Origin: Parcubacteria group bacterium
GTDB lineage: Bacteria; Patescibacteriota; Minisyncoccia; SW-4-49-11
DNA length: 64,000 nucleotides
Assembly (NCBI GenBank): GCA_943354045.1
Contig: CALRBF010000002.1
Location: 60,726-124,725, forward strand
Direction: 5' to 3'
Shown: piece after piece, positions 15,190-49,468 of the stretch
Layout: each line of letters starts with the position of its first letter
Numbering within the stretch: position 1 is the stretch's first letter
Made by a program: the position numbers and the translations under genes
Notes under the pieces: model-generated
What the model was told of the DNA's origin: nothing
The model's database searches: none
The model's input: only the letters and a program-made list of their open reading frames with translations

Positions 15190-15306
15190 TATAGTAAAAA
15201 AAATCTCCTCTTTTTATTTAGCAATCTATTATTCTGTTTGCTAGAAACCTATATCTCGTATATACTGAGTACAGTAACTCTATTTAGTAATCAATTATCT
15301 ATCGAT

Positions 15307-18021
15307 ATGGATACATCCAATAAACCAGATGCATTAACAAAAATTGCCTTATTCTTCCTGAATAAATGGCGAATTACTGTTCTTTTATTAGTAGGTATTC
15401 TTGCAATTGGAACTGCGGCTTATACTACATTCCTCAAGCGTGAGGGTTTTCCCACTATTGAGATACCTGTTGCTCTTATTCAAACCCCCTATTTTGTCAA
15501 TGACAAGGGGCTTGTAGAGAAGGATATTACTCAGCCAATTGAATCAGCTATTGGAAGCATACAAGAGGTTAAAACGGTAACTTCTACTACTGCTGATAAT
15601 TTTTCTAATATTACGGTTGAATTTAAAGAAGGTACAACTTCTAAGGCTGGGGCAAAATTATTAGAAGATGCGGTGAATGGAATTAATTTACCAAAGGATA
15701 CAAAATCTTCTTTTGTCACTATTAATGCGGCTTCTTTTGATGGAGAGAATGATTTGGTATTTAGCTTAATTGGAAATGGGAAATCTACTCAAGAATTGCA
15801 AGATAAAGCAACTTTTGTTGCAAAGGAGATAGATGCAGTTAATTCAGTTACTCGAACAAATGTAATTGATTTACAAGAAGTTCAAACTAATCCTATTACC
15901 GGTGAATCTAATTTAGAGCAAATTAAATTTGGACGCTCAGCTCATCGTGCTGATGATAAATTAGTATTCTCTGATGCTATTCTGATTGGAGCTGTACGAG
16001 ATACTTCTACCGGAACTATTGAATTCTCACAGGCTATTCAAGACAAAGTTCAAAAGCTCAAAGATGCTGGAGACTTAGATGGATATGATGTGATATTTGG
16101 TGGTGGAGATGCTTCTAATTCACTAAAGGCTCAATTAACTCTGCTTCAAGAAAGTGCTATATCTGGGCTTATTGCAGTGATGATTATTTTGCTTCTGGTG
16201 GTCAATTGGAGAGCTTCTATTGTTATTGCGGTATTTATCCCTGTCTCTATTGCACTTACATCTCTTGGTTTATATTTGATTGGATATTCTCTTAATACTC
16301 TTACTTTATTTGGTCTTATTCTGGTTATTGGATTAATCGCAGATGATGCGATTCTGGTGATTGATGCTATTGATAATGCCCGTAAAGCGGGACACCGAGG
16401 TAAAAAGGCGGTAATTCATGCAATTAATACTGTTGGGCTGGCAGATATATCTGGAACTGTTACTACCATTCTTGCCTTCATTCCTATTGCTCTTGTATCT
16501 GGTACTTTAGGAGAATTCATTAAGCTTATTCCTATTACGGTTATTTTAACCTTGGCTTTATCTCTGATTGTCAGTCTTACTCTCATTCCTTTCTTTGCAA
16601 ACTTGGTATTACCTCATTATGAGGCTGAGACAGGAGTAAAAGTAAAGCGCAAAGGTATTAGTAAAGCATTGTATAATGTTCTCTATTTTGTTCCTGGTAT
16701 TATTGATTGGATTAATACTAAGGTATATCAGTATACTAATTGGTATCTTAATAATATATGGCGTAGTACTATAATATTTGTATTAACAATTGCTCTTATT
16801 GGTGGAGGACTATTCACTGCTAGCAAGCTCAAATTTGCTATTTTTGCCCCAGCTAAAGACACTAATGAGATTACTGTTACCTCTATATTAAAGGATAATC
16901 GTGATCTTCAGAAATCTATTGATACCACTAAGGAAATTGAGAAAATCATAAAGGATACCAATGCTGATTATATTGATGATATTACCTACTTTAATGCAGA
17001 TGCATCTGGTGTATTGATGTATATTACTCTTACACCTCTTGGGGAGCGAGAAAAAACTTCAGCTACTATTGTATCCGAGATTAATGATAAGATTGCCGAT
17101 AATGTAAAGCTCAAAGATTTGAAAGTCAAAGCAGGTATAGCTGGAGCTGGGCCTCCAACCGATGATTATCAGATTACTTTCCAAGTATTCTCCGACAATC
17201 AAAAAAATCTTGAGAACTCAACCAAAGAAATTAGAGACTTTATCAAAGATATCAAATTAGATGGTGGTGAAATCAAAGATGTCATTATCAATAATATTGA
17301 TACTATTACTCAAAAAGATGGACGACGCTATGCATCGGTACAGGTTGCTGTGTCTGACCCAGAGAATACCAATCTTGTATTAGAAGCACAAACCGCTATC
17401 AAGGATAAATTTGATACTGATGAATTCCGTTCTAAGTATAATTTAGCTAAAGATGGTGTTGCATTTGATTTAGGACAACAAGGAGAAAATCTTGACTCCT
17501 TCCAATCAGCGATATTTGCTCTTATTGCGGCTATTATCATTATGTATGTGCTCTTGGTATTACAATTCAATTCCTTGAGTCAACCTTTCCTCATCCTGAT
17601 GGCAGTACCATTCTCATTCCCTGGATTATTCTTTGGACTTTATTTGACCAATAATCCTTTGAGCTTCTTTGCCTTAATTGGTATTACGGGGCTAGTCGGT
17701 ATTGTAGTTAATAATACTATCCTCTTACTTGATTACTCAAATGCCGTCTTAGCAGAAACGGGATCTGTTCGGGAATCAATTTCTGGAGCAATCAAATATC
17801 GTTTCCGAGCTTTGATTACTACTTCTCTCTCAACTATTGTAGGAATACTTCCTCTCGCCTTTGCAGACCCATTCTGGGAAGGACTTGCCTATGCATTGGT
17901 ATTCGGACTTGCATCTAGTACCCTATTGGTAATATTTGCCTATCCGGTATTCTATGTTGCCTTGGCTCATACTCGACGATTTGTCTGGAGAAAAATATTC
18001 CGTAAAAAAGACTTTAATTAA
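15307..18021 (+). CDS. RND-superfamily efflux/exporter permease (AcrB/MMPL-like, 12 TM with two large periplasmic loops)
   Basis: TM5-6 region IADDAILVIDAIDNARKAGH...ADISGTVTTILAFIPIA matches the RND consensus. The ORF track uses TTG at 15238; the ATG at 15307 (MDTSNKPD...) is preferred. Confidence 0.8.
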   Translation: MDTSNKPDALTKIALFFLNKWRITVLLLVGILAIGTAAYTTFLKREGFPTIEIPVALIQTPYFVNDKGLVEKDITQPIESAIGSIQEVKTVTSTTADNFSNITVEFKEGTTSKAGAKLLEDAVNGINLPKDTKSSFVTINAASFDGENDLVFSLIGNGKSTQELQDKATFVAKEIDAVNSVTRTNVIDLQEVQTNPITGESNLEQIKFGRSAHRADDKLVFSDAILIGAVRDTSTGTIEFSQAIQDKVQKLKDAGDLDGYDVIFGGGDASNSLKAQLTLLQESAISGLIAVMIILLLVVNWRASIVIAVFIPVSIALTSLGLYLIGYSLNTLTLFGLILVIGLIADDAILVIDAIDNARKAGHRGKKAVIHAINTVGLADISGTVTTILAFIPIALVSGTLGEFIKLIPITVILTLALSLIVSLTLIPFFANLVLPHYEAETGVKVKRKGISKALYNVLYFVPGIIDWINTKVYQYTNWYLNNIWRSTIIFVLTIALIGGGLFTASKLKFAIFAPAKDTNEITVTSILKDNRDLQKSIDTTKEIEKIIKDTNADYIDDITYFNADASGVLMYITLTPLGEREKTSATIVSEINDKIADNVKLKDLKVKAGIAGAGPPTDDYQITFQVFSDNQKNLENSTKEIRDFIKDIKLDGGEIKDVIINNIDTITQKDGRRYASVQVAVSDPENTNLVLEAQTAIKDKFDTDEFRSKYNLAKDGVAFDLGQQGENLDSFQSAIFALIAAIIIMYVLLVLQFNSLSQPFLILMAVPFSFPGLFFGLYLTNNPLSFFALIGITGLVGIVVNNTILLLDYSNAVLAETGSVRESISGAIKYRFRALITTSLSTIVGILPLAFADPFWEGLAYALVFGLASSTLLVIFAYPVFYVALAHTRRFVWRKIFRKKDFN

Positions 18022-26842: not shown

Positions 26843-27949
26843 TCATCTTTTTCTTAATTTCCAAATAAATAATCCTAGTCCCCCAGCAAGAAATAGTATT
26901 CCTCCTATCAAAATAGCTATATTTCCGAATGTTTTAGATTTTGCTGGCTGTGTAGTTGTATTCGTATCAGGGGTAGGAGTATTGGTGGAGAGTAACACTG
27001 TTCCCTGCTCTTTTTTTGATAAATTATAAGTGGAGATTTGATTATTTTGATTAATCAATAGTTCATTTCCAGATTGTCCAATCGAATATATATCAGTAAC
27101 TATTGGATTTAATGATATATTTGATTGCTCCTGCCCTTGCAAATTATATTGTATCAAATTACCATTTGTAGTTAATACAGCTATCGTATCATTATTCAGT
27201 AATACAGCTTTCCTGTTACTCATATTAATACTACTTCCTACTTGATTACTACTCCAATCGAAAACTTTTATCTGACTATTATTATATTCCAAAAAATAAT
27301 TTAATTTTGGACTGGTTGAAATTTGATAATTACTACTTTTTTGGTATACAAAGTTTTTCTTATTACCAACAAGATACCCATCAACTAATGGGATTATTTG
27401 ATGGTCTTCATTTGCTATAATTTGTTTATTAATATCCACATTAGATGGTATATTAGAGTATAGAATATTAAATTTAGACAGATCATTGGTGGGAGCAACT
27501 GTGATATCTTTATTATTAAATACATATATAATTTCATTATCAGAATACCAGCCAACTAAATTAGTTTTATCATTTAGTTGTATTTTATTTTTTGTATTAA
27601 AATCATATACCCACCATTGATTATCGGGAGATTTTCTTGAACTATCAAAAAATGGTGCTTGATATTTTGGAAATGATATATTGGGAGGATAAAGTAACAT
27701 TTTAGATTGTTCAGGAGAAATTGATACTAAGTTAGTAGCAGAAGGTATTAAATCAAATATCTCTGACTTATCACCAGTAATAACATTTTGTTTCACAATA
27801 GCCCCTGCATATTGATCAAAATATAAAATTTCATTATTTACAGCAAAACTTGGATATAGGAAACTTGAGTATATACTGGTATCCGCATATACTGGAGAAA
27901 TAGAATAGAAAGATGCTATTAGTAAAAATAGACTTAAGATTTTATTCAT
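26843..27949 (-). CDS. Secreted N/Q/S-rich beta-propeller-like surface protein with C-terminal Thr/Pro stalk, TM anchor and KLRKR tail
   Basis: Signal peptide MNKILSLFLLIASFYSISPVYA (start 27949 preferred over 28042). Repeated aromatic-rich beta-strand segments. C-terminus TPTPDTNTTTQPAKSKTFGNIAILIGGILFLAGGLGLFIWKLRKR resembles a tripartite sorting signal but lacks LPXTG. Confidence 0.5.
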   Translation of the reverse strand: MNKILSLFLLIASFYSISPVYADTSIYSSFLYPSFAVNNEILYFDQYAGAIVKQNVITGDKSEIFDLIPSATNLVSISPEQSKMLLYPPNISFPKYQAPFFDSSRKSPDNQWWVYDFNTKNKIQLNDKTNLVGWYSDNEIIYVFNNKDITVAPTNDLSKFNILYSNIPSNVDINKQIIANEDHQIIPLVDGYLVGNKKNFVYQKSSNYQISTSPKLNYFLEYNNSQIKVFDWSSNQVGSSINMSNRKAVLLNNDTIAVLTTNGNLIQYNLQGQEQSNISLNPIVTDIYSIGQSGNELLINQNNQISTYNLSKKEQGTVLLSTNTPTPDTNTTTQPAKSKTFGNIAILIGGILFLAGGLGLFIWKLRKR

Positions 27950-27953
27950 ATTG

Positions 27954-29357
27954 TTATTTACATGTTTTAAATTTTTGATAGTTACTCCACACTCCATCAC
28001 AATAATTTCCTCCACAAGCTGATGAACCTGAACATGCCCCACAATAATCTCCTGCTACACAATCAGAACAAGCTCTGGACGAAAAATCTGAATATCCATT
28101 ACATTGACTAGAACATTTATTATATCGTTTTAAATGTTTCCCCATACATACAAGGGCATCTCTTCGATTTGTTCTACTTCCACTACATCCCAGCTCATTC
28201 CAGCTCGTTTGTAAAAATTGACCTGCTCCAGCTGCTCCAGATCCATTTTCATTTGGACAAGCATTAGGATTATTAAATGCTGCAGGACATTCTCTTTGCA
28301 TAATTCCAGCTAATAGTTCAGAAGGAACACCAGTCTGTAAACTAGCATTATTTAGATCAGCCTTAACCGAATCATTTAAACTTGCACAACTTATAGTTGA
28401 GGAGTTACTCCCTCCATTACCGAGCACACCTGATCCACCTCCATTTCCCCCATTATCATTAAAAGTGCTTGCAGTGTCACATTTTACCTCGAATACTTTA
28501 CCGGGTTGAAAAGTAAGTACCGCTGAGAAATTTTGTTCTTGGAAGCCAAGTCCTACTAATAAGAAACTGAATAGGAGAAAACTTGCCATTACGAGCAATA
28601 ATCCAATCACTGCATTGGTAATAATGCCATACCCCGTACTCACTCCCCCGGGATTACCAGCTGAAGTAAGTATATATACTCCACCAATTACAATACTTAA
28701 TACTGCTAGTGAAGCTAGTAGGCCCAAAGCAAAATTAAAGATGTCTCGAATTAAGATAAATATATCACAAATAGTACAATCTCTACTGGTACCACATTTA
28801 ACAAGTCCTGTTTCTGAATTGGTTGAGCTTCCGTTAGTTGTTCCAGCACCAGCATCACCTTCTCCAGGAATATTAGAACCAGTTGCACCCCCAGAGGTCC
28901 CAGCTTGGCTGCCTCCACCAGCATTAGATCCAGATGGTGAATTAGTGGTACCACCAATAGTTGCATTTTCTTTTATACATTTAAAATCACTACATTTAAG
29001 ACCTGCTACACATTCATTTCCATTCCCAGAACAAGATTGCCCCTCTGTTTTATTGCCTCTTGGACTGGAACAAACCTGATTAATACAGGCTAATCCATTT
29101 TGACAAGTATCACCTGAGCAGGATGATCCTAAGCTAGTACGACAAGTTAATCCTAAACCTGGATTATTTTTATCTTTCACTTGGCATTTTCCATTTAAAC
29201 GAGAAATCCCATTTTGAAATGTACAATTTTGCTCTAATGCTGTTGCCCCAGCACTACAGGATCCATCAGCTGTCTGAGCATAAGTAGATTTAATACTAAA
29301 AAATGAAGCTATTAGGAAGATTATACTAAAGACTATACCAAACTTTATATATTTCAT
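27954..29357 (-). CDS. Composite protein: Cys-rich ectodomain + T4SS pilin module + lytic transglycosylase (SLT/VirB1-like) domain + Cys-rich tail
   Basis: Signal peptide. Cys-rich EGF-like N-terminal region. Pilin module ICDIFILIRDIFNFALGLLASLAVLSIVIGGVYILTSAGNPGG...AVIGLLLVMASFLLFSFLL. Then ELLAGIMQRECPAAF...GAAGAGQFLQTSW, which resembles SLT-family E..S / GLMQ / AxGxMQ motifs. The C-terminal 80 aa hold about 14 Cys. Confidence 0.55.
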   Translation of the reverse strand: MKYIKFGIVFSIIFLIASFFSIKSTYAQTADGSCSAGATALEQNCTFQNGISRLNGKCQVKDKNNPGLGLTCRTSLGSSCSGDTCQNGLACINQVCSSPRGNKTEGQSCSGNGNECVAGLKCSDFKCIKENATIGGTTNSPSGSNAGGGSQAGTSGGATGSNIPGEGDAGAGTTNGSSTNSETGLVKCGTSRDCTICDIFILIRDIFNFALGLLASLAVLSIVIGGVYILTSAGNPGGVSTGYGIITNAVIGLLLVMASFLLFSFLLVGLGFQEQNFSAVLTFQPGKVFEVKCDTASTFNDNGGNGGGSGVLGNGGSNSSTISCASLNDSVKADLNNASLQTGVPSELLAGIMQRECPAAFNNPNACPNENGSGAAGAGQFLQTSWNELGCSGSRTNRRDALVCMGKHLKRYNKCSSQCNGYSDFSSRACSDCVAGDYCGACSGSSACGGNYCDGVWSNYQKFKTCK

Positions 29358-41700: not shown

Positions 41701-41729
41701 TTGACAAAATTGCTATTTTATGCTATAGT
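41701..41729 (+). promoter_or_regulatory. Consensus sigma70 promoter TTGACA-17-TATAGT for the glycosyltransferase gene
   Basis: TTGACA 41701-41706, TATAGT 41724-41729. ATG at 41756. Confidence 0.5.
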
Positions 41730-41755
41730 TTTTGTCTGTAGAACTAATATCCCAT

Positions 41756-42862
41756 ATGGTCATAGCATTTGTTGGTACCAGAGGAATTCCCTATCAAAAT
41801 ACTCGAGATAGAAATGAGTATAACTGTGAAATTGTAGCGACTCAATTGGCAAGACGAGGGCATTCTGTATATGTACTCTCAGACCCTAATTACACACAAT
41901 TAACGGAATATAAGAATATTCTTATTATTCCCAGTCAACCTAAAGTCAAGTCCATTATTCGTGAGCTCCGGAAAATAGAAAATCTTGATATTGTACATAT
42001 TAGATCGCTAGAATATGCTTGGGTGGCTTTTTGGGTATCATTACAAATGCCTCAAGTAAGAGTTATTTTTGATTATCATCAATATACTTTTGTCAATAGC
42101 AAAAAGAATAGACGACGCTATATGCTACTCTCTTATATATCTGCTCAGTTTTCTGATTCTTTGATTATAGATAATCCAGAATTACAAACTCTATTTAACT
42201 CTTCTTTTAAATCAAAAGTATATAGTATACCAACAGGAATTGATACTGCTTCTATTGTAAATTCTCAAAATAATTTCAAAGATTTATACCCTCAAGAATA
42301 TATTCTGGTTCATAATGGGCAATATAGAGATTCTGAGAGTTTAGAATTATGGTTAAAGGCATATCGCAAACATAATCTGAATCTTCCTGTTATTGTACTG
42401 GGTAAAGTAAAGCCATCTATACGTGAGTCTTATCAAAGTGATATTATTCTTTTTGTGGGAGAATTAAGCGGGAATACCGAACAAGCTCTGATTCAAAATG
42501 CTCATATATTTGTAGAGATTTCTCCTAATAATGAAGATAAATATCCTCTATCCCTAGCTCTGATTGCTGGAATTCCCGTTCTTGCTTCAAAAGGAGAATA
42601 TAATCAAGAATTAATAAAAGCAAATGGAATATTCTTTACTCCTTATAATTATAGCTCTATTGTAACTGGTCTCAATATTATTGAGGATATGTATCCTATT
42701 CTCAAGCGCATAGCCTCAGAATATATGCCAATAATTCAAGATATATTATCTATTGAGGGTCAAGTACACAAATATCTGTATGCTTATCTCAATACATTTG
42801 AAGCAAAAAAAGCTCGTAAATATCTTGAAAAACCTCGCTTCTCTATACCCGTAATTGGTTAA
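41756..42862 (+). CDS. GT4-family (GT-B) glycosyltransferase
   Basis: MVIAFVGTRGIPYQNTRDRNEYNCEIVATQLARRGHSVYVL N-terminal domain pattern. C-terminal domain with E..G.PV.AS motif region. The ORF-track TTG start at 41732 lies inside the promoter. Confidence 0.65.
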   Translation: MVIAFVGTRGIPYQNTRDRNEYNCEIVATQLARRGHSVYVLSDPNYTQLTEYKNILIIPSQPKVKSIIRELRKIENLDIVHIRSLEYAWVAFWVSLQMPQVRVIFDYHQYTFVNSKKNRRRYMLLSYISAQFSDSLIIDNPELQTLFNSSFKSKVYSIPTGIDTASIVNSQNNFKDLYPQEYILVHNGQYRDSESLELWLKAYRKHNLNLPVIVLGKVKPSIRESYQSDIILFVGELSGNTEQALIQNAHIFVEISPNNEDKYPLSLALIAGIPVLASKGEYNQELIKANGIFFTPYNYSSIVTGLNIIEDMYPILKRIASEYMPIIQDILSIEGQVHKYLYAYLNTFEAKKARKYLEKPRFSIPVIG

Positions 42863-43270
42863 TTATTCTGTGGGATTTTCTTCTGCTGTTTCTACGTGAA
42901 TATGTTCTTCTCCATGATCATGGTTATGTCCATCATGATTATGCTCAAGTTCTAATTCTTGGGTCAAATTCTTGGTGATTTCCTCTTTATGCTGCACTAA
43001 TTCCGCTTTTAATACTTCTATTTGATTTGCAAATATATCGCTAAGAGTCGGAACATTTTCTTGAATATAGGTAGTGACGAGCTCCGGATCATTATCATTG
43101 AGTAAAGTGTCTAAATGCTGAGCTTGCTCTTCACTAAGGGTATCATAAGCCGCACTGAGTACACGAACTTCGAGAATTTGAGTTAATTCATCTACCAATT
43201 GAGCTCTATTCTCAAGAGGTAAATCTTCTAGCCCTAATAATGTGATGATATTGTCTTGTGCATTGTCCAT
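42863..43270 (-). CDS. Small acidic protein with His-rich C-terminal tail (HNHDGHNHDHGEEHIH), immediately downstream of the giant ORF
   Basis: ORF of 135 aa; a 14-nt gap separates it from the 1450-aa gene. Confidence 0.45.
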   Translation of the reverse strand: MDNAQDNIITLLGLEDLPLENRAQLVDELTQILEVRVLSAAYDTLSEEQAQHLDTLLNDNDPELVTTYIQENVPTLSDIFANQIEVLKAELVQHKEEITKNLTQELELEHNHDGHNHDHGEEHIHVETAEENPTE

Positions 43271-43284
43271 ATTATTGTAATTAA

Positions 43285-46200
43285 TTATTTGTTAAGTACT
43301 TGTCGCACAGCTTCTTTAATTCCTATCATTTTACTTGGCTGTAAGAATGTAGAAAGTGGCTGTAATCTAGTTCCACCATTTGGCAGTCTAATTTGATTCC
43401 AGAATCCAGATGTTGGAATATTCCTATTACCACTAAATTCCGCCCAGTTAAACTTTGATACAAATTCTTCTGGAGATTTGATATCCTTAAATCTTAGATA
43501 TTCTTTGAATAATTGAATATTCTGATTATTAATATCTGGATTATTTACAATTGCATCATAAAGCCACTGTTTACCTGCATCAGTTTGTACATAAGTATCT
43601 AATACCTGCTTACCTAAATTAGAGTCATAAGGCAAGTTCCCTAATTCATTAGCGATATATCTCTGTACTACACCTAAAGAGTTTGTTCCTTTAGTTAATT
43701 CCACCATATCTGGAGCATCTTCAAATCTAGCTAAAATAGTCTGATTCAAAACTTTTCTTAACTCATCAGAGTTTATGTTATTAACTACTTCAGACATTTG
43801 CTCTGGACTTAAGTTTGCAAATCCATTAGATAAAAATGTAGATCCTTCACCTGTATTGATTATAGAGTTATAGATTACTTCTCTTCCATAATCATCTGTA
43901 AAATATGATTGTATAATTTCTTTAGCTTGTAAATCTGTAAGATTTTGCTTACCTAATATTTCAGATAAATCTCTAGTAAATTCACTAGTTGCAACTGGTG
44001 GAACTTCTGGAGATGGAGTTGCTACTGGAGCTTCGGCTGCTGGTGGAACTATAGGCTCTGATCCTAAAGATTCAGTGCCTACTGGTGATGATGCTGGTGT
44101 TTCGGAATATACTGGATCAATAGTAGGAGCTTCTGCTGGAGATGGAGCAACATATTCTGCTGGTTGAAATGCCTCAAGATGATCTATGTTAAAATGACTA
44201 ATTCCCTCTAATTGACCTGGACCTAGATATCTTGAAACTTCATATAATTGCCCTTTTGAAAGGCTGGCCATTTCATTAGCATTATCTATTCCCCATTGAG
44301 CTAATAATCCTCTTCCCCCTTCGGTACCTTGCGCTAATTGAAACATCGTATTCTGACCTACTCCCGACTGCACATAATTTTCTAAGGCATGCTGTATTTG
44401 GTCTGGACTAGCATTTGGCCCTAATTGTTTAGCTATTTCTCCCCATAAAGTCTCACCTTTACTTAATTGAGATATATCTTGTAATTGTTCTGGGGATAGA
44501 TTTTGAGTAGCTGCTTTGGTAGCTTCAGTTGCAGCACCCGTACCTTCTGGAGTTGGAGAAATTGGTTCCACTTCAGGTTTTGAGGTAGCAGCAACTTGCT
44601 CTGGATTAAATACTCCTCCTGGTCGCATCATATCAACTGCTAATGAGGTCATAAGGCCTCCACCCACTGCTGTTCCTACTACATTGGCAATAGTTCTATT
44701 TCTTTGTTGCTTTTGTAATTCTGTAATACGTTTTTCTGATAAAGTAGTTAATAGTCTACTTGTATATTGTTGATTTTGTTCTGGAGAAGAGAATACAAAT
44801 TTCTCAGAAGCTCCTTGTATGGCGACTTCATTAGTAATATCTTCTGAGCTTATAATCTCATCTTTAGCTTTCAGGGTATTAGTTGAACTTGATTCTTGTT
44901 TTACTTGTTTTGCAATACTTTCACGCTGTACTCTACTACCCAACTCAGTTAATATAGCCTCATAAGCTGTTTGCTGTGATTCATTAGTAAATTTACCACC
45001 ATTAAGGCGATAATAGGCCTCAAGTGTACTAAGCTTTGTACTTAAATCAGCATCATTTGCATTATTAATATAATCATCTTTCAATGAATCTTCTACTAAT
45101 TTTGGTATAACTGCTTTAAATTTAATACCAAATCTGTTTATCTCTCCATCCTCCATCAGACCTACTAAAGTATTCCTTGAGCTAACTCCTGACATAACAC
45201 TTCCCAGAGATCTTCTTGTCATTTCTAAAGCTCCTGATACTGGTATCCCTGCTCCAGTCGAAGATAATAAAGCACCTGCAGCAAAAAGACCTATATTAGC
45301 TAACATCCATCGAGTTTTATTTTTAGTTGCCCAACCTAAGAACTTTTCTTTGGCACCATTAAACCTCTTCTCCCATTTACCTTGTAGCTCTTGGGACTGA
45401 TCTATCCTACTATCTCTCAAATTCTTAACCTCTTGTGTAAAGACTCTATGTATTTCTGACTCTAAACCTTGAGCTGCCATAATACCAATAACTTCCTCAA
45501 CTGTTTGATTATATTCTCCTCTTAGTCTTTCTAATTCTAATTTTGCACTCTCATCATTACGATTTCTATTATAAAATTCTTCAGCTCGGGCATAAGCTGT
45601 TCTCAAATCTGTGATATTAATTTTATATGATGAGTCTACATTTTTTTCAAAATCAGGTATTGATTTATATCCCACCGCCTCACTACCTGACAATGTAGAT
45701 AATGGGATGTTGGTATCATCTACAATAACTCCCTTTATAAATTCATTTTTACTAAGTGTACTGACAATAAAATCTGGAGTTTGTGGATTAAGTCCTGGCA
45801 ATACATAGCCTGTATAATGTAAGTCAGAATCTACTGCATCTAAATTAATATCTGTAAGTATATGAGCTGGTCGAGCTTTACCTATCAAATTTGCGACACT
45901 ATAAGTTCGATTTAATTCTATATTTTTACTATGATGTTTAATGGTAATAATATTTCCATTTTCATCAAATCCATATCCTTGTGCTTCTAGATAATCTTTT
46001 GTATTTTTTGCTTCTGGATGTGATAAATCTATATCTCTTTGTTGCGGAAGAGCAAAGATTTCTCCTCCCTTAATATGCGCAAGTTTATTCTGAGCTTCCC
46101 AAGCAGCTTGCTCAAATGCACGATATCTCTCATTTGTTGCCAGATCTCGAGTATGGAAAGGATGCTCTTGTGCAAATTGTTGATATGTAGCAATAGCTTG

Positions 46201-47637
46201 AAGAGATTCTTGTTTTAATTGTTCAATTTCTGCACTCTTATCAAGGGTTTCTAATTCTCCTTCACCGGGAGATATTTCACCCTCTATTCTAGCTAATGCA
46301 CCTCCCGTTTCTCGTTCAGCAATACTATTAGTTAAATCACCTAATTCTTGCGCTAATTCTTCTGCTCCAGGCAATCCATCAAGTAGTGTTTCTGTCTCTG
46401 GATCTAATCCGGAAGGATTTGTTTCAGTTGTTGACACGCTTTCATCTTGCCTAAGATCCTGTTCAGGTGGGACTTCAAGAGTTTTTCCTTCACCCCGAAT
46501 ATCAAACCCATCATCTGATCCCTGCTCATTCAATATTTCAGTAGAGACAGAATGTTCCTCCACAACTACTCCAGGGGTCAATTCTCCACTAGTACCACCA
46601 TATGCTGATAATCCATAGAGTGCTCTTGTTGCATTAATAAATTCTAAATATTCTCCAGATATATCTGCATTTTTTTGCTGTGCTTTTATTAATTCATAAT
46701 TAGGTAAATCTGTAAGCTTTGGCATTATACCAGTAGCTTGTATACCCCTTACCAAATTATCTCTTTCTAAATCATCAGCTATTAATAACCAGTCTGATAA
46801 ATAATTCCTAGCCCTTGTATAATCATCTGTAGTTGCTAATTTAGTGTGCTCTAGATATGGATAAGCTTGTATTCTAGCTTGTATTTCAGTGTCTATTACT
46901 TCTGTCTGTTCAGTTTGTTCTGCGCTTAGAGTTTCAAGACCAATTTGTTCTCTCCAAACAGCTCTATTCTCTGGAGTTAATTCACCCCACTGTAATTCCT
47001 CTGGGATATTTTTATCATTTGCTTCAATTGCTAATCTTAATTTATATTCTAACGCACCTTTATCATCCCCCTCAGGAATACCAAGTAGTCTACCAAAAGT
47101 TGGGATAATATATGTAGAAGGATCTCTACTACTTTCCTTATCTCCCTTTCCTAGAGTAAGTTCATTCTTAAATTCATTATTTGTTAATCTAATATGACCA
47201 GGTTTTTGTTTGGGATCAGACTCCCCACCATTTTCATTACGAGGTTTTTGCCATGTTATTTCATGGGGTGCAGATTCTCCTAACTCATTACCTTCTTCTG
47301 GGTCAGGAGATTCTACAGGAGGAACATATTCTGATAGTCCATACCATGTTCTTGCCTCACCTATATCATATGTAGCATCTCCCTCAAGGGCTTTAGGTAC
47401 TACACCCAATTGAAGAATTTGATCTTTTAGTGTCCCATATTCTGGATCACCTGATGTAATCTGAAGTTGCTTGGCTAGTGTTTTTAAAGCGGTTTTACGC
47501 TCTCTAATATCTAGTATAACTTGATACTCAAATGGAGGAACATTTCCTTGTAAATCAACATAATCTTTTGAAGTTGATATATCGCTCTCACTTCCTTCAT
47601 AAGGTTGTTCGAGATTAGATCCATACGACTTTCCCAT
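43285..47637 (-). CDS. Giant hypothetical protein (1450 aa) with two central TM segments and a Pro/Ala-rich low-complexity block
   Basis: Uninterrupted ORF. TM candidates WMLANIGLFAAGALLSSTGAGIPVSGAL and IANVVGTAVGGGLMTSLAVDMM. PAAEAPVATPSPEVPPVATS linker. No N-terminal signal peptide and no recognised catalytic motif. Confidence 0.55.
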   Translation of the reverse strand: MGKSYGSNLEQPYEGSESDISTSKDYVDLQGNVPPFEYQVILDIRERKTALKTLAKQLQITSGDPEYGTLKDQILQLGVVPKALEGDATYDIGEARTWYGLSEYVPPVESPDPEEGNELGESAPHEITWQKPRNENGGESDPKQKPGHIRLTNNEFKNELTLGKGDKESSRDPSTYIIPTFGRLLGIPEGDDKGALEYKLRLAIEANDKNIPEELQWGELTPENRAVWREQIGLETLSAEQTEQTEVIDTEIQARIQAYPYLEHTKLATTDDYTRARNYLSDWLLIADDLERDNLVRGIQATGIMPKLTDLPNYELIKAQQKNADISGEYLEFINATRALYGLSAYGGTSGELTPGVVVEEHSVSTEILNEQGSDDGFDIRGEGKTLEVPPEQDLRQDESVSTTETNPSGLDPETETLLDGLPGAEELAQELGDLTNSIAERETGGALARIEGEISPGEGELETLDKSAEIEQLKQESLQAIATYQQFAQEHPFHTRDLATNERYRAFEQAAWEAQNKLAHIKGGEIFALPQQRDIDLSHPEAKNTKDYLEAQGYGFDENGNIITIKHHSKNIELNRTYSVANLIGKARPAHILTDINLDAVDSDLHYTGYVLPGLNPQTPDFIVSTLSKNEFIKGVIVDDTNIPLSTLSGSEAVGYKSIPDFEKNVDSSYKINITDLRTAYARAEEFYNRNRNDESAKLELERLRGEYNQTVEEVIGIMAAQGLESEIHRVFTQEVKNLRDSRIDQSQELQGKWEKRFNGAKEKFLGWATKNKTRWMLANIGLFAAGALLSSTGAGIPVSGALEMTRRSLGSVMSGVSSRNTLVGLMEDGEINRFGIKFKAVIPKLVEDSLKDDYINNANDADLSTKLSTLEAYYRLNGGKFTNESQQTAYEAILTELGSRVQRESIAKQVKQESSSTNTLKAKDEIISSEDITNEVAIQGASEKFVFSSPEQNQQYTSRLLTTLSEKRITELQKQQRNRTIANVVGTAVGGGLMTSLAVDMMRPGGVFNPEQVAATSKPEVEPISPTPEGTGAATEATKAATQNLSPEQLQDISQLSKGETLWGEIAKQLGPNASPDQIQHALENYVQSGVGQNTMFQLAQGTEGGRGLLAQWGIDNANEMASLSKGQLYEVSRYLGPGQLEGISHFNIDHLEAFQPAEYVAPSPAEAPTIDPVYSETPASSPVGTESLGSEPIVPPAAEAPVATPSPEVPPVATSEFTRDLSEILGKQNLTDLQAKEIIQSYFTDDYGREVIYNSIINTGEGSTFLSNGFANLSPEQMSEVVNNINSDELRKVLNQTILARFEDAPDMVELTKGTNSLGVVQRYIANELGNLPYDSNLGKQVLDTYVQTDAGKQWLYDAIVNNPDINNQNIQLFKEYLRFKDIKSPEEFVSKFNWAEFSGNRNIPTSGFWNQIRLPNGGTRLQPLSTFLQPSKMIGIKEAVRQVLNK

Positions 47638-47700
47638 AATATTTATTTATTTTACATTATTTTTTAGTATATCATATTGATACACAATTTCCAAATTTTT

Positions 47701-49116
47701 TTAATCAGCTTTACGGGGAGCTATGATTGCCCATGGAGTTTTGAGTAATATGATAATATCTAACCATATGCTCCAATTCTCTATATAAAAGGTATCATAT
47801 AACACTTCTTCTTCAAAACTCAAGTCTGAGCGGCCATTAACTTGGGCCATACCAGTTATTCCCGGTTTGATTGTGAGTACTTTTTTATGATGCTGTTTAT
47901 ATTTTTCCACTTCTCGGGGTTGATGAGGTCGAGGACCTACAAGACTCATACTTCCTGCGAGCACATTAAAGAATTGGGGTAATTCGTCTATGCTGGTTTT
48001 GCGGATAAATTTACCTAATTTGGTAACACGAGGATCATCTTTAATCTTATTCACAGGACCTGCTTTTATACCTTTTTCGGCTAATAATTTTTGTTCTAAA
48101 GCAATAGATGCGGCATTATCTTCATCGGTACATAATTCTTCATACATACTACGGAATTTGTATACATCAAATGGTTTTTTGGCAACTCCTACTCTACGAC
48201 TTTTATATAAAATGGGTCCTGGTGAGTCGATTTTGATTGCAATTATAGTAATAATATATATTGGTAAAAGGATAATAATTGCTATGCTTGCAACAATAAT
48301 ATCGAATAATCTTTTCCAAATACTTCCCCATCCTTCTAGGGTTGTACGCTTTACGCGGAACAATAATACTCCCGAGAGATTTTTTACTTCTACTTGGGTA
48401 TACATATCGAATATATTAGGAATATATTGAAAATCAATTTTATATTCCTCACATAAATAATTAACTTTTATTAATTGGTCTTGTGGTAATTTAGTATCTG
48501 CTAATATGACTTCATCTATCTGTTTAGTAACTGCTAAATGTCTTAAATCTTTTAGATTTAATCCCTGTTGTACTTCTACTATATGATACCCTATACCTGC
48601 TTTGGTATTAAGCGCATCTAATACTAATTTACCTGCTATGTCCCCACCTGTAATAATAAGAACTCTATGTATTCCCCATTTATAATGTCTTATAATAGCA
48701 TCTTGTATGGTATGTATTAATAATCTTCCAATAAGTAAAAAGATAATAGCTAAAGCCCATAAGGAAATAATCAAAAATCTTGAGGAGAATAAGTCTCGAG
48801 AATAAAAGAAATAGTATAAAATAATAATTAAGATTGTAGTAGATACGGAGCTCAAAATACGATAAAATTCGCTCACAATTCCGCGAGTTTTGCGGGTATT
48901 ATACATTCCAGAAAATGCCAAAACAATTATGGTTACTATTGCAAATATAATAACAAAACTATTATACCAATCACTACTAAAATCATAGGGTATGGGACGA
49001 TATTCAATTGCAATGCTTGAAATACGTAATTGATAAGACAATATTCCTGCTAAAATAATGACCAAAAAGTCTATAGGTACTCGTATAGCACTAAATAATA
49101 ACTCAAATCTATTCAT
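47701..49116 (-). CDS. Polyprenyl-phosphate sugar phosphotransferase (WbaP/Bac_transf family)
   Basis: C-terminal catalytic domain LVGPRPHQPREVEKY...KPGITGMAQVNGRSDLSFEE. N-terminal TM region and central Rossmann-like domain. Confidence 0.85.
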   Translation of the reverse strand: MNRFELLFSAIRVPIDFLVIILAGILSYQLRISSIAIEYRPIPYDFSSDWYNSFVIIFAIVTIIVLAFSGMYNTRKTRGIVSEFYRILSSVSTTILIIILYYFFYSRDLFSSRFLIISLWALAIIFLLIGRLLIHTIQDAIIRHYKWGIHRVLIITGGDIAGKLVLDALNTKAGIGYHIVEVQQGLNLKDLRHLAVTKQIDEVILADTKLPQDQLIKVNYLCEEYKIDFQYIPNIFDMYTQVEVKNLSGVLLFRVKRTTLEGWGSIWKRLFDIIVASIAIIILLPIYIITIIAIKIDSPGPILYKSRRVGVAKKPFDVYKFRSMYEELCTDEDNAASIALEQKLLAEKGIKAGPVNKIKDDPRVTKLGKFIRKTSIDELPQFFNVLAGSMSLVGPRPHQPREVEKYKQHHKKVLTIKPGITGMAQVNGRSDLSFEEEVLYDTFYIENWSIWLDIIILLKTPWAIIAPRKAD

Positions 49117-49136: not shown

Positions 49137-49468
49137 ATTATCCAAGAAGAATATAAGCTGGATTCTGTTAACTATAATTGCAAGCAAATATAGTTAGGCA
49201 ATCATTTATCTTGATATACTGTTACCAGTATATTCTTGGCGGCACTCTTTTCAATACAGAAAAGCACGGCCTTGCACCTGATAGGGTTTATCTCTTTTCA
49301 CCTTAGATGAGATATACTCAAATGTCTTGTTTCTGCGATACTATCCCGATTGAGCAAGCTCAATGATGGGTGTTACCCATTATCATTTATTACAAAGTAA
49401 TAGGTGTCCAGACTTTCCTCACTCACCATATTATGGATATGCGCGATTACCATTCTCCTTGGATACTC
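49137..49468 (-). ncRNA. rnpB: RNase P RNA (bacterial, reduced-size), ~330 nt
   Basis: Minus-strand sequence contains the P4 5' strand GUGAGGAAAGUCUGGAC (consensus GAGGAAAGUCCGGGCUC) and the P4 3' strand AACAGAAUCCAGCUUAU (consensus ACAGAAnCCGGCUUA). It also contains GGUGAAA and GGUGCAAGGCCGUGC elements. P1/P2 closes with 5' UAUCCAAGGAGAAU pairing 3' AUUCUUCUUGGAUA. Confidence 0.75.

What the first reader, a model, noticed from the sequence alone, without database searches (positions are those of the whole stretch)
42863..47637. 1450-aa two-TM giant protein followed (14-nt gap) by a small acidic His-rich protein
The giant ORF has no signal peptide. It has about 770 aa before the first TM, about 190 aa between TMs, about 440 aa after, and a Pro/Ala-rich linker, with no catalytic motif I can recognise. 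The downstream 135-aa protein is highly acidic and ends in HNHDGHNHDHGEEHIH, a metal-binding or chaperone-like tail. Giant membrane proteins are a CPR hallmark and are implicated in host-cell contact. The pairing with a His-rich partner suggests a chaperone/cargo or metal-dependent pair. It is adjacent to a WbaP-like glycan-initiating transferase and a GT4 glycosyltransferase with a consensus promoter, which suggests an envelope or surface context.
Basis: inference. Interest (0 to 1): 0.5.

Follow-up and report, generated by a model that had tools for sequence, protein, structure and literature searches.

The report
Mosaic giant protein with DUF5663 partner
A very large, fast-changing membrane-associated protein of unknown family is always encoded next to a small, highly conserved acidic helper protein (DUF5663) across distant Patescibacteria, which points to an undescribed two-protein envelope module rather than a metal-binding pair.

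Summary
Both ORFs exist as described: 1450 aa at 43285-47637(-), 135 aa at 42863-43270(-), with a 14-nt gap. The small protein is Pfam DUF5663. The giant matches no Pfam, NCBIfam, PHROG, PADLOC or PDB family.

The pairing holds. All 23 distinct loci whose contigs extend far enough carry both genes, adjacent and on the same strand. This spans three Patescibacteria clades with DUF5663 down to about 30% identity, and the gene order is flipped in one clade.

Only a core of about 230 aa is shared by all the large partners: helices, a Gly-zipper hydrophobic hairpin, a helical domain and a second hydrophobic segment (hhalign 89.6%). Both hydrophobic segments are only marginally hydrophobic (about +3 to +4 kcal/mol).

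In genomes whose flanking genes are 92-98% identical, the giant is a patchwork of 30-50% and 90-100% identical blocks (omega 0.3-1.0, raised dS). DUF5663 evolves like a housekeeping gene (omega 0.04-0.17).

The His-rich tail occurs in only 22 of 72 close homologues and in no distant one, so a metal function is not core.

Best reading (0.4): DUF5663 is a cytoplasmic chaperone or assembly partner for the giant's hydrophobic core, within an envelope-glycan context. No function is demonstrated.

The parts
43285..47637 (-). Giant ORF, 1450 aa. It is acidic (pI 4.65), has no Cys and matches no known family. Its alleles are mosaic and hypervariable.
46318..47637 (-). aa 1-440: N-terminal region with presence/absence variation. 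It is acidic, has omega about 0.5-1.0 and many indels between alleles.
46198..46305 (-). aa 445-480: near-invariant acidic motif GGxLARIEGEIxPGEGELETLDxSxEIE, set inside otherwise divergent sequence. AF2 confidence here is low.
45811..46233 (-). aa 469-609: two helices plus a small beta-sheet domain (pLDDT 65-82). It is specific to clade A and exists in two divergent allele types (about 30% vs about 90% identity).
45310..45615 (-). aa 675-776: conserved helices ending in a basic juxtamembrane helix (KWEKRFNGAKEKFLGWATKNKTRW). This is the start of the core shared by all clades.
45226..45309 (-). aa 777-804: hydrophobic region 1 (HR1), a Gly-zipper with a central G-x-G-[IL]-P turn. Across the family the uncharged stretch is 27-46 residues. 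A conserved RR follows it. Read as a probable re-entrant hairpin.
44908..45225 (-). aa 805-910: helical domain after HR1, carrying the invariant LEAYYRLNGGKFT motif. It is among the most evenly conserved blocks of the giant and is shared with the distant clades.
44626..44694 (-). aa 982-1004: hydrophobic segment 2 (TM2), Gly-rich. Its N-flank is basic (KQQRNR) and its C-flank acidic.
43288..44625 (-). aa 1005-1450: a Pro/Ala/Ser/Thr-rich stalk, then helical repeats R1 (1046-1150), R2 (1213-1300) and R3/C-terminal (1301-1450) separated by a second P/A-rich linker (1150-1212). Proposed to be extracytoplasmic.
42863..43270 (-). Small ORF, 135 aa, Pfam DUF5663. It is all-alpha, acidic (pI 4.2), and has no signal peptide or TM segment.
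42956..43270 (-). aa 1-105 of the small protein: the conserved DUF5663 core, with the invariant NIIxLLGLExL motif. Omega is 0.04-0.17.
42866..42955 (-). aa 106-135 of the small protein: a lineage-specific disordered acidic tail. It contains the His-rich stretch (aa 110-125, window 42896-42943) and ends in NPTE.
47666..47694 (-). Promoter-like site TTGGAA-17-TATACT (TG-extended) in the 63-nt spacer upstream of the giant gene. It is a consensus match only, and the number of such matches in the region is not above chance.
47701..49116 (-). WbaP-type phosphoglycosyl transferase (Bac_transf plus CoA_binding_3), immediately upstream on the same strand. This position is syntenic throughout clade A.
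41732..42862 (+). GT4 glycosyltransferase, convergent with the pair. Its stop codon abuts the stop codon of the small ORF. This position is syntenic throughout clade A.

Best explanation
The two genes form a Patescibacteria-specific two-protein module that has not been characterised.

The large protein is a membrane-associated envelope protein. Only one part of it is conserved across all clades: a core of about 230-330 aa made of amphipathic/basic helices, a Gly-zipper hydrophobic hairpin (HR1), a conserved helical domain and a second Gly-rich hydrophobic segment (TM2).

The most likely topology is as follows. The N-terminal ~980 aa lie in the cytoplasm, with HR1 dipping into the membrane as a re-entrant hairpin. 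TM2 crosses the membrane once. The C-terminal ~445 aa (a Pro-rich stalk plus two to three helical repeats) lie outside the cell.

DUF5663 is a cytoplasmic, acidic, all-helical partner. I propose that it binds the giant's conserved, basic-flanked and only marginally hydrophobic core. It would act as a dedicated chaperone or assembly factor that keeps these segments soluble and hands them to the membrane.

Everything in the giant outside the core is lineage-specific. Within the window's lineage it is reshuffled by recombination of divergent allele blocks, as expected for a contested surface or envelope component acting alongside cell-wall glycan synthesis.

Shown: pairing, conservation contrast, mosaicism, shared core, marginal hydrophobicity, charge asymmetry.
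Inferred: physical binding, chaperone role, topology, envelope function.
For: 1. Adjacency. In all 23 distinct loci where the contig allows, the two genes are adjacent and co-directional. Gaps are 1-87 nt, or 209-240 nt where a 61-aa ORF intervenes. The gene order is reversed in clade C. The four loci lacking a partner are all cut by contig ends.
2. Shared core. The distant partners share only the core with the window protein: hhalign 89.6%, E 1.9e-6, aa 693-906. N- and C-terminal parts are not detectably homologous between clades. A universally conserved partner can therefore only recognise the core.
3. Marginal hydrophobicity. Insertion energies average +2.8 kcal/mol for HR1 and +3.8 for TM2 over 25 members, against -2 to -4.6 for true TM helices of five membrane proteins, one from this window and four from related loci. 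Such segments would plausibly need help to insert.
4. Flank charges over 25 members (K+R / D+E): HR1 N-flank 119/23, HR1 C-flank 55/54 with a conserved RR, TM2 N-flank 144/62, TM2 C-flank 27/61. This fits N-in, a re-entrant HR1 and C-out. It also gives basic surfaces for an acidic partner (pI 4.05 for the DUF5663 core).
5. HR1 shape. AF2 draws HR1 as helix-turn-helix with the break at the conserved GxG[IL]P, though at low pLDDT.
7. Selection. DUF5663 is under housekeeping-level constraint (omega 0.04-0.17; 85% identity where RecJ is 73-77% and GT4 60-66%). The giant has omega 0.3-1.05 and dS three to four times that of its flanks.
8. Mosaicism. The block and DNA-level patchwork is confined to the giant gene.
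9. Context. Envelope-glycan genes sit nearby in all three clades: WbaP plus GT4; a PMT_2 glycosyltransferase; RmlA-D plus a MurA-like gene, a PEGA protein and an S41 peptidase.
10. Stalk. Low-complexity linkers follow TM2 in clades A and C, Pro-rich in A and L023 and Gly-rich in L024; in clade B the post-TM2 stretch is acidic rather than clearly low-complexity.
Against: - There is no direct evidence that the two proteins bind. No fusion of the two families was found.
- Dedicated chaperones usually co-vary with their client rather than being far more conserved than it. An adaptor to some other conserved machine would fit that contrast equally well.
- Ltp-type domains (PF07553), which are typical of extracellular lipoproteins, are inserted N-terminal to HR1 in three of 25 scanned family members. 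This argues against a cytoplasmic N-terminus.
- The N-terminal 'cytoplasmic' parts are as variable as the proposed exposed C-terminus.
- With insertion energies of +3 to +4 kcal/mol, the segments might not be membrane-embedded at all in the resting state.
- The glycan context differs between clades and may only reflect general envelope gene neighbourhoods in small genomes.
Confidence: 0.4

Rival explanations
1. Exported, conditionally membrane-inserting protein with a secretion chaperone. The whole giant leaves the cell, and its weakly hydrophobic Gly-zipper hairpins insert into a target membrane (host or own envelope), as secreted translocators and alpha-pore-formers do. DUF5663 would be its small acidic export chaperone or adaptor, possibly coupled to one of the orphan VirD4-like coupling ATPases that are abundant in Patescibacteria.
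For: - The hydrophobicity of both segments is too low for autonomous Sec insertion. From my own knowledge, this is a property of TM-containing substrates of specialised secretion systems.
- In clade B the pair is followed directly by a 130-145-aa protein and a VirD4/TraG-like ATPase. In L002 and L025 a split homologue lies about 5 kb downstream.
- CPR genomes carry about two T4CP homologues each, mostly far from virB4 and with unknown function (bioRxiv 10.1101/2025.01.22.634366).
- The giant has no Cys in 1450 aa, and Cys is depleted across the family.
- An extracellular-type Ltp domain is inserted in the N-terminal part of some members.
- Variability affects the whole length of the giant.
- The partner is small, acidic and helical.
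Against: - No T4CP homologue lies in the 64-kb window or in most clade A and all clade C loci.
- The flank charges obey the positive-inside rule, as for a protein inserted into the producer's own membrane.
- Nineteen of 55 window genes also lack Cys, so Cys depletion is weak evidence.
- No secretion signal or system has been identified.
Confidence: 0.22
2. Classical two-pass topology: N-in, a 177-aa external loop, C-in. The protein would act as a scaffold or co-polymerase-like regulator of envelope glycan assembly (working like Wzz/PCP proteins) or as a transmembrane sensor, with DUF5663 as a cytoplasmic subunit.
For: - There are two hydrophobic segments separated by a conserved loop of about 180 aa.
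- The gene lies immediately downstream of WbaP, and glycan genes occur in all three clades.
- TM2 is Gly-rich, as in the second TM of PCP proteins (my own knowledge).
Against: - No Wzz or GNVR match appeared in any table returned at E <= 1: none for the window protein, and neither family among the 25 of 34 families listed for the 25 scanned members.
- The TM2 flank charges are the reverse of what an out-to-in pass predicts (N-flank 144/62, C-flank 27/61).
- The 'loop' is one of the most conserved blocks, rather than a variable exposed segment.
- The distance between the two hydrophobic segments ranges from about 100 to 350 aa between clades.
- The hydrophobicity is far below that of true TM helices.
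Confidence: 0.12
3. Metal-dependent pair. The His-rich tail of the small protein binds metal and acts as a metallochaperone or as a metal-regulated partner of the giant.
For: HNHDGHNHDHGEEHIH carries 7 His in 16 residues within an acidic tail.
Against: - The His cluster is present in only 22 of 72 clade-A homologues. In the others it is replaced by Ser/Thr/Asn/Glu-rich tails, and clades B and C have no tail at all.
- AF2 models the tail as disordered.
- The conserved function therefore sits in aa 1-105.
Confidence: 0.04
4. Phage- or mobile-element-derived protein, such as a tape-measure-like protein with its chaperone, or a polymorphic toxin with its immunity protein.
For: - The giant is long and helical, with Gly-rich hydrophobic segments and mosaic evolution.
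- Some members carry an Ltp domain (Ltp targets tape-measure proteins; my own knowledge).
- A small gene lies immediately downstream.
Against: - There are no PHROG hits and no PADLOC hits.
- DUF5663 is absent from 2.9 million viral contigs.
- The pair keeps a stable chromosomal position between housekeeping genes in every locus.
- The downstream small protein is the most conserved gene of the locus, the opposite of an immunity protein that co-varies with a toxin.
Confidence: 0.03

Closest known systems
Pfam DUF5663 (PF18908)
   Same: The small protein scores 30.0 bits against a gathering cut-off of 23.7, over 80 of the model's 84 positions. All 72 close homologues carry the precomputed PF18908 annotation.
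   Different: The family has no assigned function, and no paper in the searched library mentions it. The window protein adds a 30-aa acidic, His-rich tail that is absent from most members.
Flagellin-FliS, or secreted translocator with a small helical chaperone (functional analogy only)
   Same: In both cases a small, acidic, all-helical, well-conserved cytoplasmic protein is encoded beside a large client. The client has conserved binding segments and hypervariable remaining sequence, and it contains aggregation-prone or weakly hydrophobic segments.
   Different: There is no sequence or significant fold similarity. FliS appears only at Foldseek E > 6. No flagellar or T3SS genes are involved, and export of the giant is not shown.
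RbcX (Rubisco assembly chaperone)
SdhE/Sdh5 (CptB antitoxin), the name JGI gives to some homologues
   Same: There is a weak Pfam match over aa 38-74 (E 4.3e-4, 20.6 bits). Both are small helical acidic proteins.
Polysaccharide co-polymerases (Wzz/PCP; CpsC-type)
   Same: Both have two hydrophobic segments that bracket a helical region of about 180 aa and both are encoded in a glycan-synthesis neighbourhood next to an initiating phosphoglycosyl transferase. The second segment here is Gly-rich, a trait I recall for PCP proteins.
   Different: No Wzz or GNVR match appeared at E <= 1 (only 25 of 34 families were listed for the 25-member scan). The giant has about 780 aa N-terminal to the first segment. 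The flank charges contradict PCP topology. The hydrophobicity is far lower than for true TM helices.
Mosaic surface-protein genes such as pneumococcal PspA/CbpA-type loci (evolutionary analogy)
   Same: Block-wise allele exchange occurs inside one gene while the flanks stay 92-100% identical. Both dS and omega are elevated.
   Different: There is no homology. The protein has no signal peptide or wall-anchor motif, and the variability also covers the part predicted to be cytoplasmic.

Membership tests
Pfam DUF5663 (PF18908) - small protein | Score above the Pfam gathering threshold over most of the model | tested here: met
   30.0 bits against a cut-off of 23.7, covering aa 11-90 and model positions 4-83 of 84. 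PF18908 is precomputed on all 72 homologues.
SdhE/Sdh5 flavinylation factor (CptB) | Pfam PF03937 score above the gathering threshold, the conserved RGxxE motif, and the SdhE five-helix fold | tested here: not met
   The sequence has no [AG]xxxxGK[ST] motif. No SMC or MukB match appears at E <= 1 in the tables returned (the window protein in full; the 25 of 34 families listed for the 25 members).
Polysaccharide co-polymerase (Wzz, PF02706; GNVR, PF13807) | A Wzz or GNVR domain match and an N-in / periplasmic loop / C-in topology | tested here: not met
   There is no such Pfam hit at E <= 1 in the tables returned (25 of 34 families listed). The TM2 flank charges are opposite to the PCP topology. 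Actual topology cannot be tested with these tools.
LysM or other known wall-binding modules (for the C-terminal repeats) | A Pfam LysM, SLH, PG_binding or CW_binding match in aa 1046-1450 | tested here: not met
   The repeats contain a 'kGETLWGEIAKQLG' start that looks LysM-like by eye. No such family appears in the tables returned at E <= 1 (only 25 of 34 families listed). R1 and R2 are homologous to each other (hhalign 97.4%).
Phage tape-measure protein | A PHROG or Pfam tape-measure match and a location within a tail gene module | tested here: not met
   The giant has no PHROG hit at E <= 0.1. Its neighbours are housekeeping genes. DUF5663 does not occur in viral contigs.
Known anti-phage defence systems (PADLOC) | A match to any PADLOC model | tested here: not met
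   None of the six proteins tested, taken from the three clades, has a hit at E <= 0.1.
Type III/flagellar/T4SS secretion chaperones (FliS, class II TPR, VirE1, IcmS/W) | A sequence or fold match to one of these chaperone families, and a cognate secretion system in the genome | tested here: inconclusive
   There are no Pfam or NCBIfam matches. FliS appears only at Foldseek E 7.9-8.4. A VirD4-like ATPase is adjacent in clade B only. The complete genome was not available, so the presence of a secretion system could not be checked.
Proposed new family: large partner of DUF5663 (Gly-zipper hairpin core) | Pre-hairpin helix with the D-x-R...GKW-x-K motif; a 27-46-residue uncharged Gly-zipper with a central G/P turn followed by RR; the Y-x-R-x-x-L-x-G-x-K...Y helix; a second Gly-rich segment; and adjacency to DUF5663 | tested here: met
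   The features are visible in the manual alignment. hhalign of the A1 against the A3 alignment gives 89.6% and E 1.9e-6 over 192 columns. A core HMM hits exactly one ORF beside every DUF5663 gene.

The most novel reading that the evidence does not exclude
The pair could be the substrate-plus-adaptor half of a Patescibacteria-wide export route that has not been recognised. In this reading the giant is a conditionally membrane-inserting, translocator-like or pore-former-like protein. Its Gly-zipper hairpins are kept soluble by DUF5663. It is then handed to one of the orphan VirD4-like coupling ATPases, which are abundant in CPR genomes and have no known substrate. The protein ends up in the envelope or in a host membrane, where arms-race selection drives the cassette shuffling of its alleles.
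Probability: 0.12. Interest if true: 0.85.

Novelty: new variant of a known kind. Interest (0 to 1): 0.55.

Why it matters
Patescibacteria make up a large share of bacterial diversity, yet most of their envelope and host-interaction proteins have no assigned function.

This work turns an anonymous giant ORF into a defined, testable module with four parts:
- a family-wide conserved hydrophobic core;
- an obligate small partner (DUF5663), which gains its first functional context;
- a recurrent link to cell-wall glycan genes;
- a clear population-genetic signature, since the giant is the one gene in the locus that is reshuffled by recombination while its neighbours stay 92-98% identical.

Such hotspots usually mark molecules contested by phages, hosts or competitors. 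The locus would therefore be a good marker for strain-level dynamics in freshwater Paceibacteria. It is also a good candidate for experiments on how ultra-small bacteria build or expose surface structures.

If the export reading is right, it would also give a first candidate substrate to the many orphan VirD4-like ATPases of CPR bacteria.

Tried and rejected
**Family searches on the giant (all negative)**
- Pfam, NCBIfam, PHROGs and PADLOC gave no hit for the window protein.
- A Pfam scan of 25 diverse members at E <= 1 gave only weak DUF2024 matches (5 of 25) and Ltp inserts (3 of 25).
- PDB sequence profiles built from alignments A1, A2, A4 and A6 found nothing.

**Structure**
- The AF2 model of aa 440-1450 was too weak for fold assignment (pLDDT 53.8), and Foldseek against the PDB found nothing.

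**Homologue searches**
- The word-indexed searches were swamped by low-complexity candidates. They returned only 12 and 10 giants.
- The full phmmer scan found 27 cluster representatives, so the giant family looks narrow at the sequence level.

**Specific ideas tested and dropped**
- Link to a T4SS coupling protein: no homologue in the window, and neighbours only in L020, L022, L002 and L025. I kept this as a minority rival.
- Homology of N- and C-terminal domains between clades: none detected.
- Fusion proteins joining the two families: none found.
- Cys depletion as evidence of export: weakened, because 19 of 55 window genes also have no Cys.
- SdhE/antitoxin naming, tape-measure protein, toxin-immunity pair, SMC-like protein and metal-binding pair: each rejected for the reasons given under the rival explanations and membership tests.

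**Literature**
- Searches for DUF5663 and PF18908 returned no papers.


Full report
**1. Observation**

The ORF list shows a 1450-aa ORF at 43285..47637(-) and a 135-aa ORF at 42863..43270(-). They are separated by the 14 nt TTAATTACAATAAT.

The giant has no N-terminal hydrophobic stretch. It has exactly two hydrophobic segments, aa 777-804 and aa 982-1004. Two Pro/Ala-rich linkers are present. There is no P-loop and no HExxH motif.

The small protein has 32 D+E against 5 K+R and a pI of 4.2. It carries HNHDGHNHDHGEEHIH at aa 110-125.

The upstream neighbour is a WbaP-type Bac_transf protein. The convergent downstream neighbour is a GT4 glycosyltransferase preceded by a near-consensus promoter-like site.

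The window comes from a Patescibacteria (Paceibacteria/Parcubacteria-type) genome with GC of about 34%.

**2. What the two proteins are at the family level**

The small protein is a member of Pfam DUF5663: 30.0 bits against a cut-off of 23.7. It also has a sub-threshold Sdh5 match, which explains some JGI names.

The giant has no hit in Pfam, NCBIfam, PHROGs, PADLOC or PDB sequences. A Pfam scan of 25 diverse family members at E <= 1 shows nothing consistent.

A full phmmer scan of 1.84 billion cluster representatives with aa 440-1450 finds only 27 proteins. No paper in the searched library mentions DUF5663 or PF18908.

**3. The pairing is conserved far beyond this lineage**

In every close relative the gene order is response regulator, RecJ, WbaP, giant, DUF5663 and a convergent GT4.

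DUF5663 genes at only 30-37% identity (loci L020-L024 and L029-L032) also sit next to a large protein with exactly two Gly-rich hydrophobic segments. That partner is 691-781 aa and upstream in clade B. It is 1222-1565 aa and downstream in clade C, after a 61-aa ORF.

HMMs of DUF5663 and of the giant core were run over all ORFs of the window and 32 loci. They found one hit of each, adjacent and co-directional, in all 29 sequence sets with enough contig. These represent 23 distinct giants. The four exceptions are contig-end truncations.

No fusion of the two families was found, and DUF5663 is absent from viral contigs.

**4. What is shared between the large partners**

An HMM of the close family does not find the distant partners. 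A manual alignment does show common motifs:
- D-x-R...GKW-x-K before the first hydrophobic region;
- a Gly-zipper with a central G/P turn followed by RR;
- a Y-x-R-x-x-L-x-G-x-K...Y helix;
- a basic stretch before the second hydrophobic segment.

Profile-profile comparison gives 89.6% probability and E 1.9e-6 over 192 columns, covering window aa 693-906. The N- and C-terminal regions are not detectably related between clades.

The family is thus defined by a core of about 230-330 aa, with lineage-specific ends.

In the window's clade, the C-terminal part contains homologous helical repeats separated by Pro-rich linkers. R1 against R2 gives 97.4% and E 9e-12; R2 against R3 gives 80%.

**5. Are the hydrophobic segments transmembrane, and how?**

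Summed Hessa-scale insertion energies for the best 19-residue windows average +2.8 kcal/mol for HR1 and +3.8 for TM2 over 25 members. The window protein gives +3.8 and +4.2. True TM helices of WbaP, SecD, SecF, a PMT-type glycosyltransferase and a DUF7544 protein (one from this window, four from related loci) give -2 to -4.6. The segments are therefore only marginally hydrophobic.

HR1 is an uncharged stretch of 27-46 residues with a conserved central G-x-G-[IL]-P. AF2 draws it as helix-turn-helix, at low confidence.

Flank charges over 25 members:

| Flank | K+R | D+E |
|---|---|---|
| HR1 N-flank | 119 | 23 |
| HR1 C-flank (conserved RR) | 55 | 54 |
| TM2 N-flank | 144 | 62 |
| TM2 C-flank | 27 | 61 |

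This pattern fits an N-in protein with a re-entrant HR1 and a single N-in/C-out pass at TM2. It fits less well with the simple two-pass model. In clades A and C a low-complexity 'stalk' follows TM2.

Counter-evidence exists. Ltp-type domains (PF07553), usually extracellular, are inserted N-terminal to HR1 in three of the 25 scanned members. In addition, the low hydrophobicity leaves room for a protein that inserts only conditionally.

**6. Evolutionary behaviour**

Identity to the window's proteins (best tblastn HSP):

| Comparison | Flanking genes | DUF5663 | Giant aa 441-770 | Giant aa 771-1010 | Giant aa 1011-1450 |
|---|---|---|---|---|---|
| L001, L018 (close) | RecJ, WbaP and GT4 95-98%; enolase and Fmt 92%; response regulator 85% | 97-98% | 46-47% | 60-67% | 63-82% |
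| L002, L003, L005 (more distant) | RecJ 73-77%, WbaP 80-81%, GT4 60-66% | core 85% | 40-67% | 40-54% | 38-62% |

A block table shows identity flipping between 90-100% and 30-50% within single protein pairs. The combinations differ between homologues. P0001 is identical to the window protein except for aa 1066-1160 (65%) and 1161-1212 (87%).

At the DNA level, bins of 300 nt in the flanks are 86-100% identical, all but three of them at 90% or more. Inside the giant gene they range from 51% to 99%. The divergent patches differ between L018 and L001.

NG86 estimates give omega 0.04-0.21 for flanking genes and 0.04-0.17 for DUF5663. For the giant, omega is 0.31-1.05. Its dS is 0.6-0.8 where the flanks have about 0.2. 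This is the signature of recombinational import of old, divergent allele blocks combined with relaxed or diversifying selection, and it is confined to this one gene.

**7. The small protein**

The His-rich stretch occurs in 22 of 72 clade-A homologues. In the others the tail is Ser/Thr/Asn/Glu-rich, and clades B and C lack it altogether. The conserved function therefore lies in aa 1-105, which carries the invariant NIIxLLGLExL motif.

**8. Genomic context**

All three clades place the pair among envelope genes:
- Clade A: WbaP and GT4.
- Clade B: a divergent PMT_2 glycosyltransferase and a lamin-tail-domain protein upstream. Downstream lie a 130-145-aa acidic protein, a VirD4/TraG-like ATPase and a ClpB-like ATPase.
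- Clade C: RmlC, RmlB, an RmlD-RmlA fusion, a CDP-alcohol phosphatidyltransferase, a DUF7544 membrane protein and a divergent PEGA protein upstream. A MurA-like gene and an S41 peptidase lie downstream.

The VirD4-like gene is adjacent only in clade B. It lies about 5 kb away, split into two genes, in L002 and L025, and it is absent from the window. A recent preprint reports that CPR genomes carry many T4CP homologues far from virB4 and with unknown role (10.1101/2025.01.22.634366).

**9. Interpretation**

The most economical reading is a dedicated two-protein module. DUF5663, cytoplasmic and acidic, would recognise the only universally conserved part of its large neighbour: the basic-flanked, marginally hydrophobic hairpin core. 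It would act as a chaperone or assembly factor. The large protein would sit in the envelope, with lineage-specific and recombining outer parts, and would act in the neighbourhood of wall-glycan synthesis. I give this 0.4.

The main rival (0.22) is that the giant is exported and inserts only conditionally, with DUF5663 as its export chaperone, possibly coupled to a T4CP. A two-pass, PCP-like scaffold gets 0.12. The metal-pair idea (0.04) and a phage, toxin or other mobile-element origin (0.03) are poorly supported. The remaining probability goes to functions not considered here.

**10. Novelty and verdict**

DUF5663 is catalogued in Pfam but has no described function. The large family, the obligate pairing, the shared core and the mosaic hotspot appear to be undescribed. 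No function is demonstrated.

I rate this a new variant of a known kind: a hypervariable envelope protein with a small dedicated partner. Interest is 0.55. It rises to about 0.85 if the export/T4CP reading proves true (probability about 0.12).

Noticed in passing
window 49138-49462 (-): A bacterial class A RNase P RNA (142.5 bits, full length) lies between the WbaP gene and recJ. It accounts for the apparently empty spacer of about 390 nt.
   Followed up: no
window 41701-41756 (+): The -10 box of the near-consensus promoter ends at 41729, only 2 nt before the listed TTG start of the GT4 ORF (41732). The true start is probably the ATG at codon 9 (41756, MVIAFVGTRG...).
   Followed up: partly
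L020 7302-10141 and L022 7294-10270; L002 18140-20434; L025 14980-18066: In clade B the pair is followed directly by a 130-145-aa acidic protein and an 816-833-aa VirD4/TraG-like coupling ATPase with an N-terminal TM segment. In two clade-A relatives the same ATPase is split into two genes (427 aa, with a weak DUF8128 match in L002, and about 597 aa) about 5 kb downstream. No homologue lies in the window.
   Followed up: partly
P0011, P0012, P0092 (inserted between window-equivalent aa ~640 and 675): Some giants carry inserted Ltp-type domains (PF07553, best E 5.8e-14). This domain is known from a phage superinfection-exclusion lipoprotein. Its position N-terminal to the first hydrophobic region conflicts with a cytoplasmic N-terminus.
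   Followed up: partly
L023 7300-7488, L030 9315-9500, L031 3711-3896, L029 2218-2412: In clade C a conserved 61-64-aa helical ORF sits between DUF5663 and the large gene. It is basic (pI about 9-10) in three of the four loci and acidic (pI 5.0) in L029. It may be a third component, and it has no Pfam or PADLOC match.
   Followed up: partly
window 42866-42880 (-), the C-terminus of the small protein: The acidic tail of clade-A DUF5663 proteins is otherwise variable but mostly ends in a conserved (E/D)NNPTE-like motif. This may be a short linear motif.
   Followed up: no
window 27954-29357 (-): A 467-aa ORF has a borderline T4SS_pilin (PF18895) match: 26.0 bits against a cut-off of 26.6, E 9.9e-6. 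It overlaps the next ORF (26843-28042) by 89 nt. This hints that T4SS-type components exist in this genome.
   Followed up: no
window, whole: Nineteen of the 55 non-overlapping ORFs of at least 100 aa contain no cysteine, including a 927-aa AcrB/RND-like transporter (15238-18021). The background Cys frequency is only 0.70%.
   Followed up: partly
window 46096-46258 (-), giant aa 460-506 vs aa 659 onwards: The core HMM's pre-hairpin helix (HMM positions about 23-69) matches a second time upstream in many clade-A giants. This suggests an internal duplication of that helical element.
   Followed up: no
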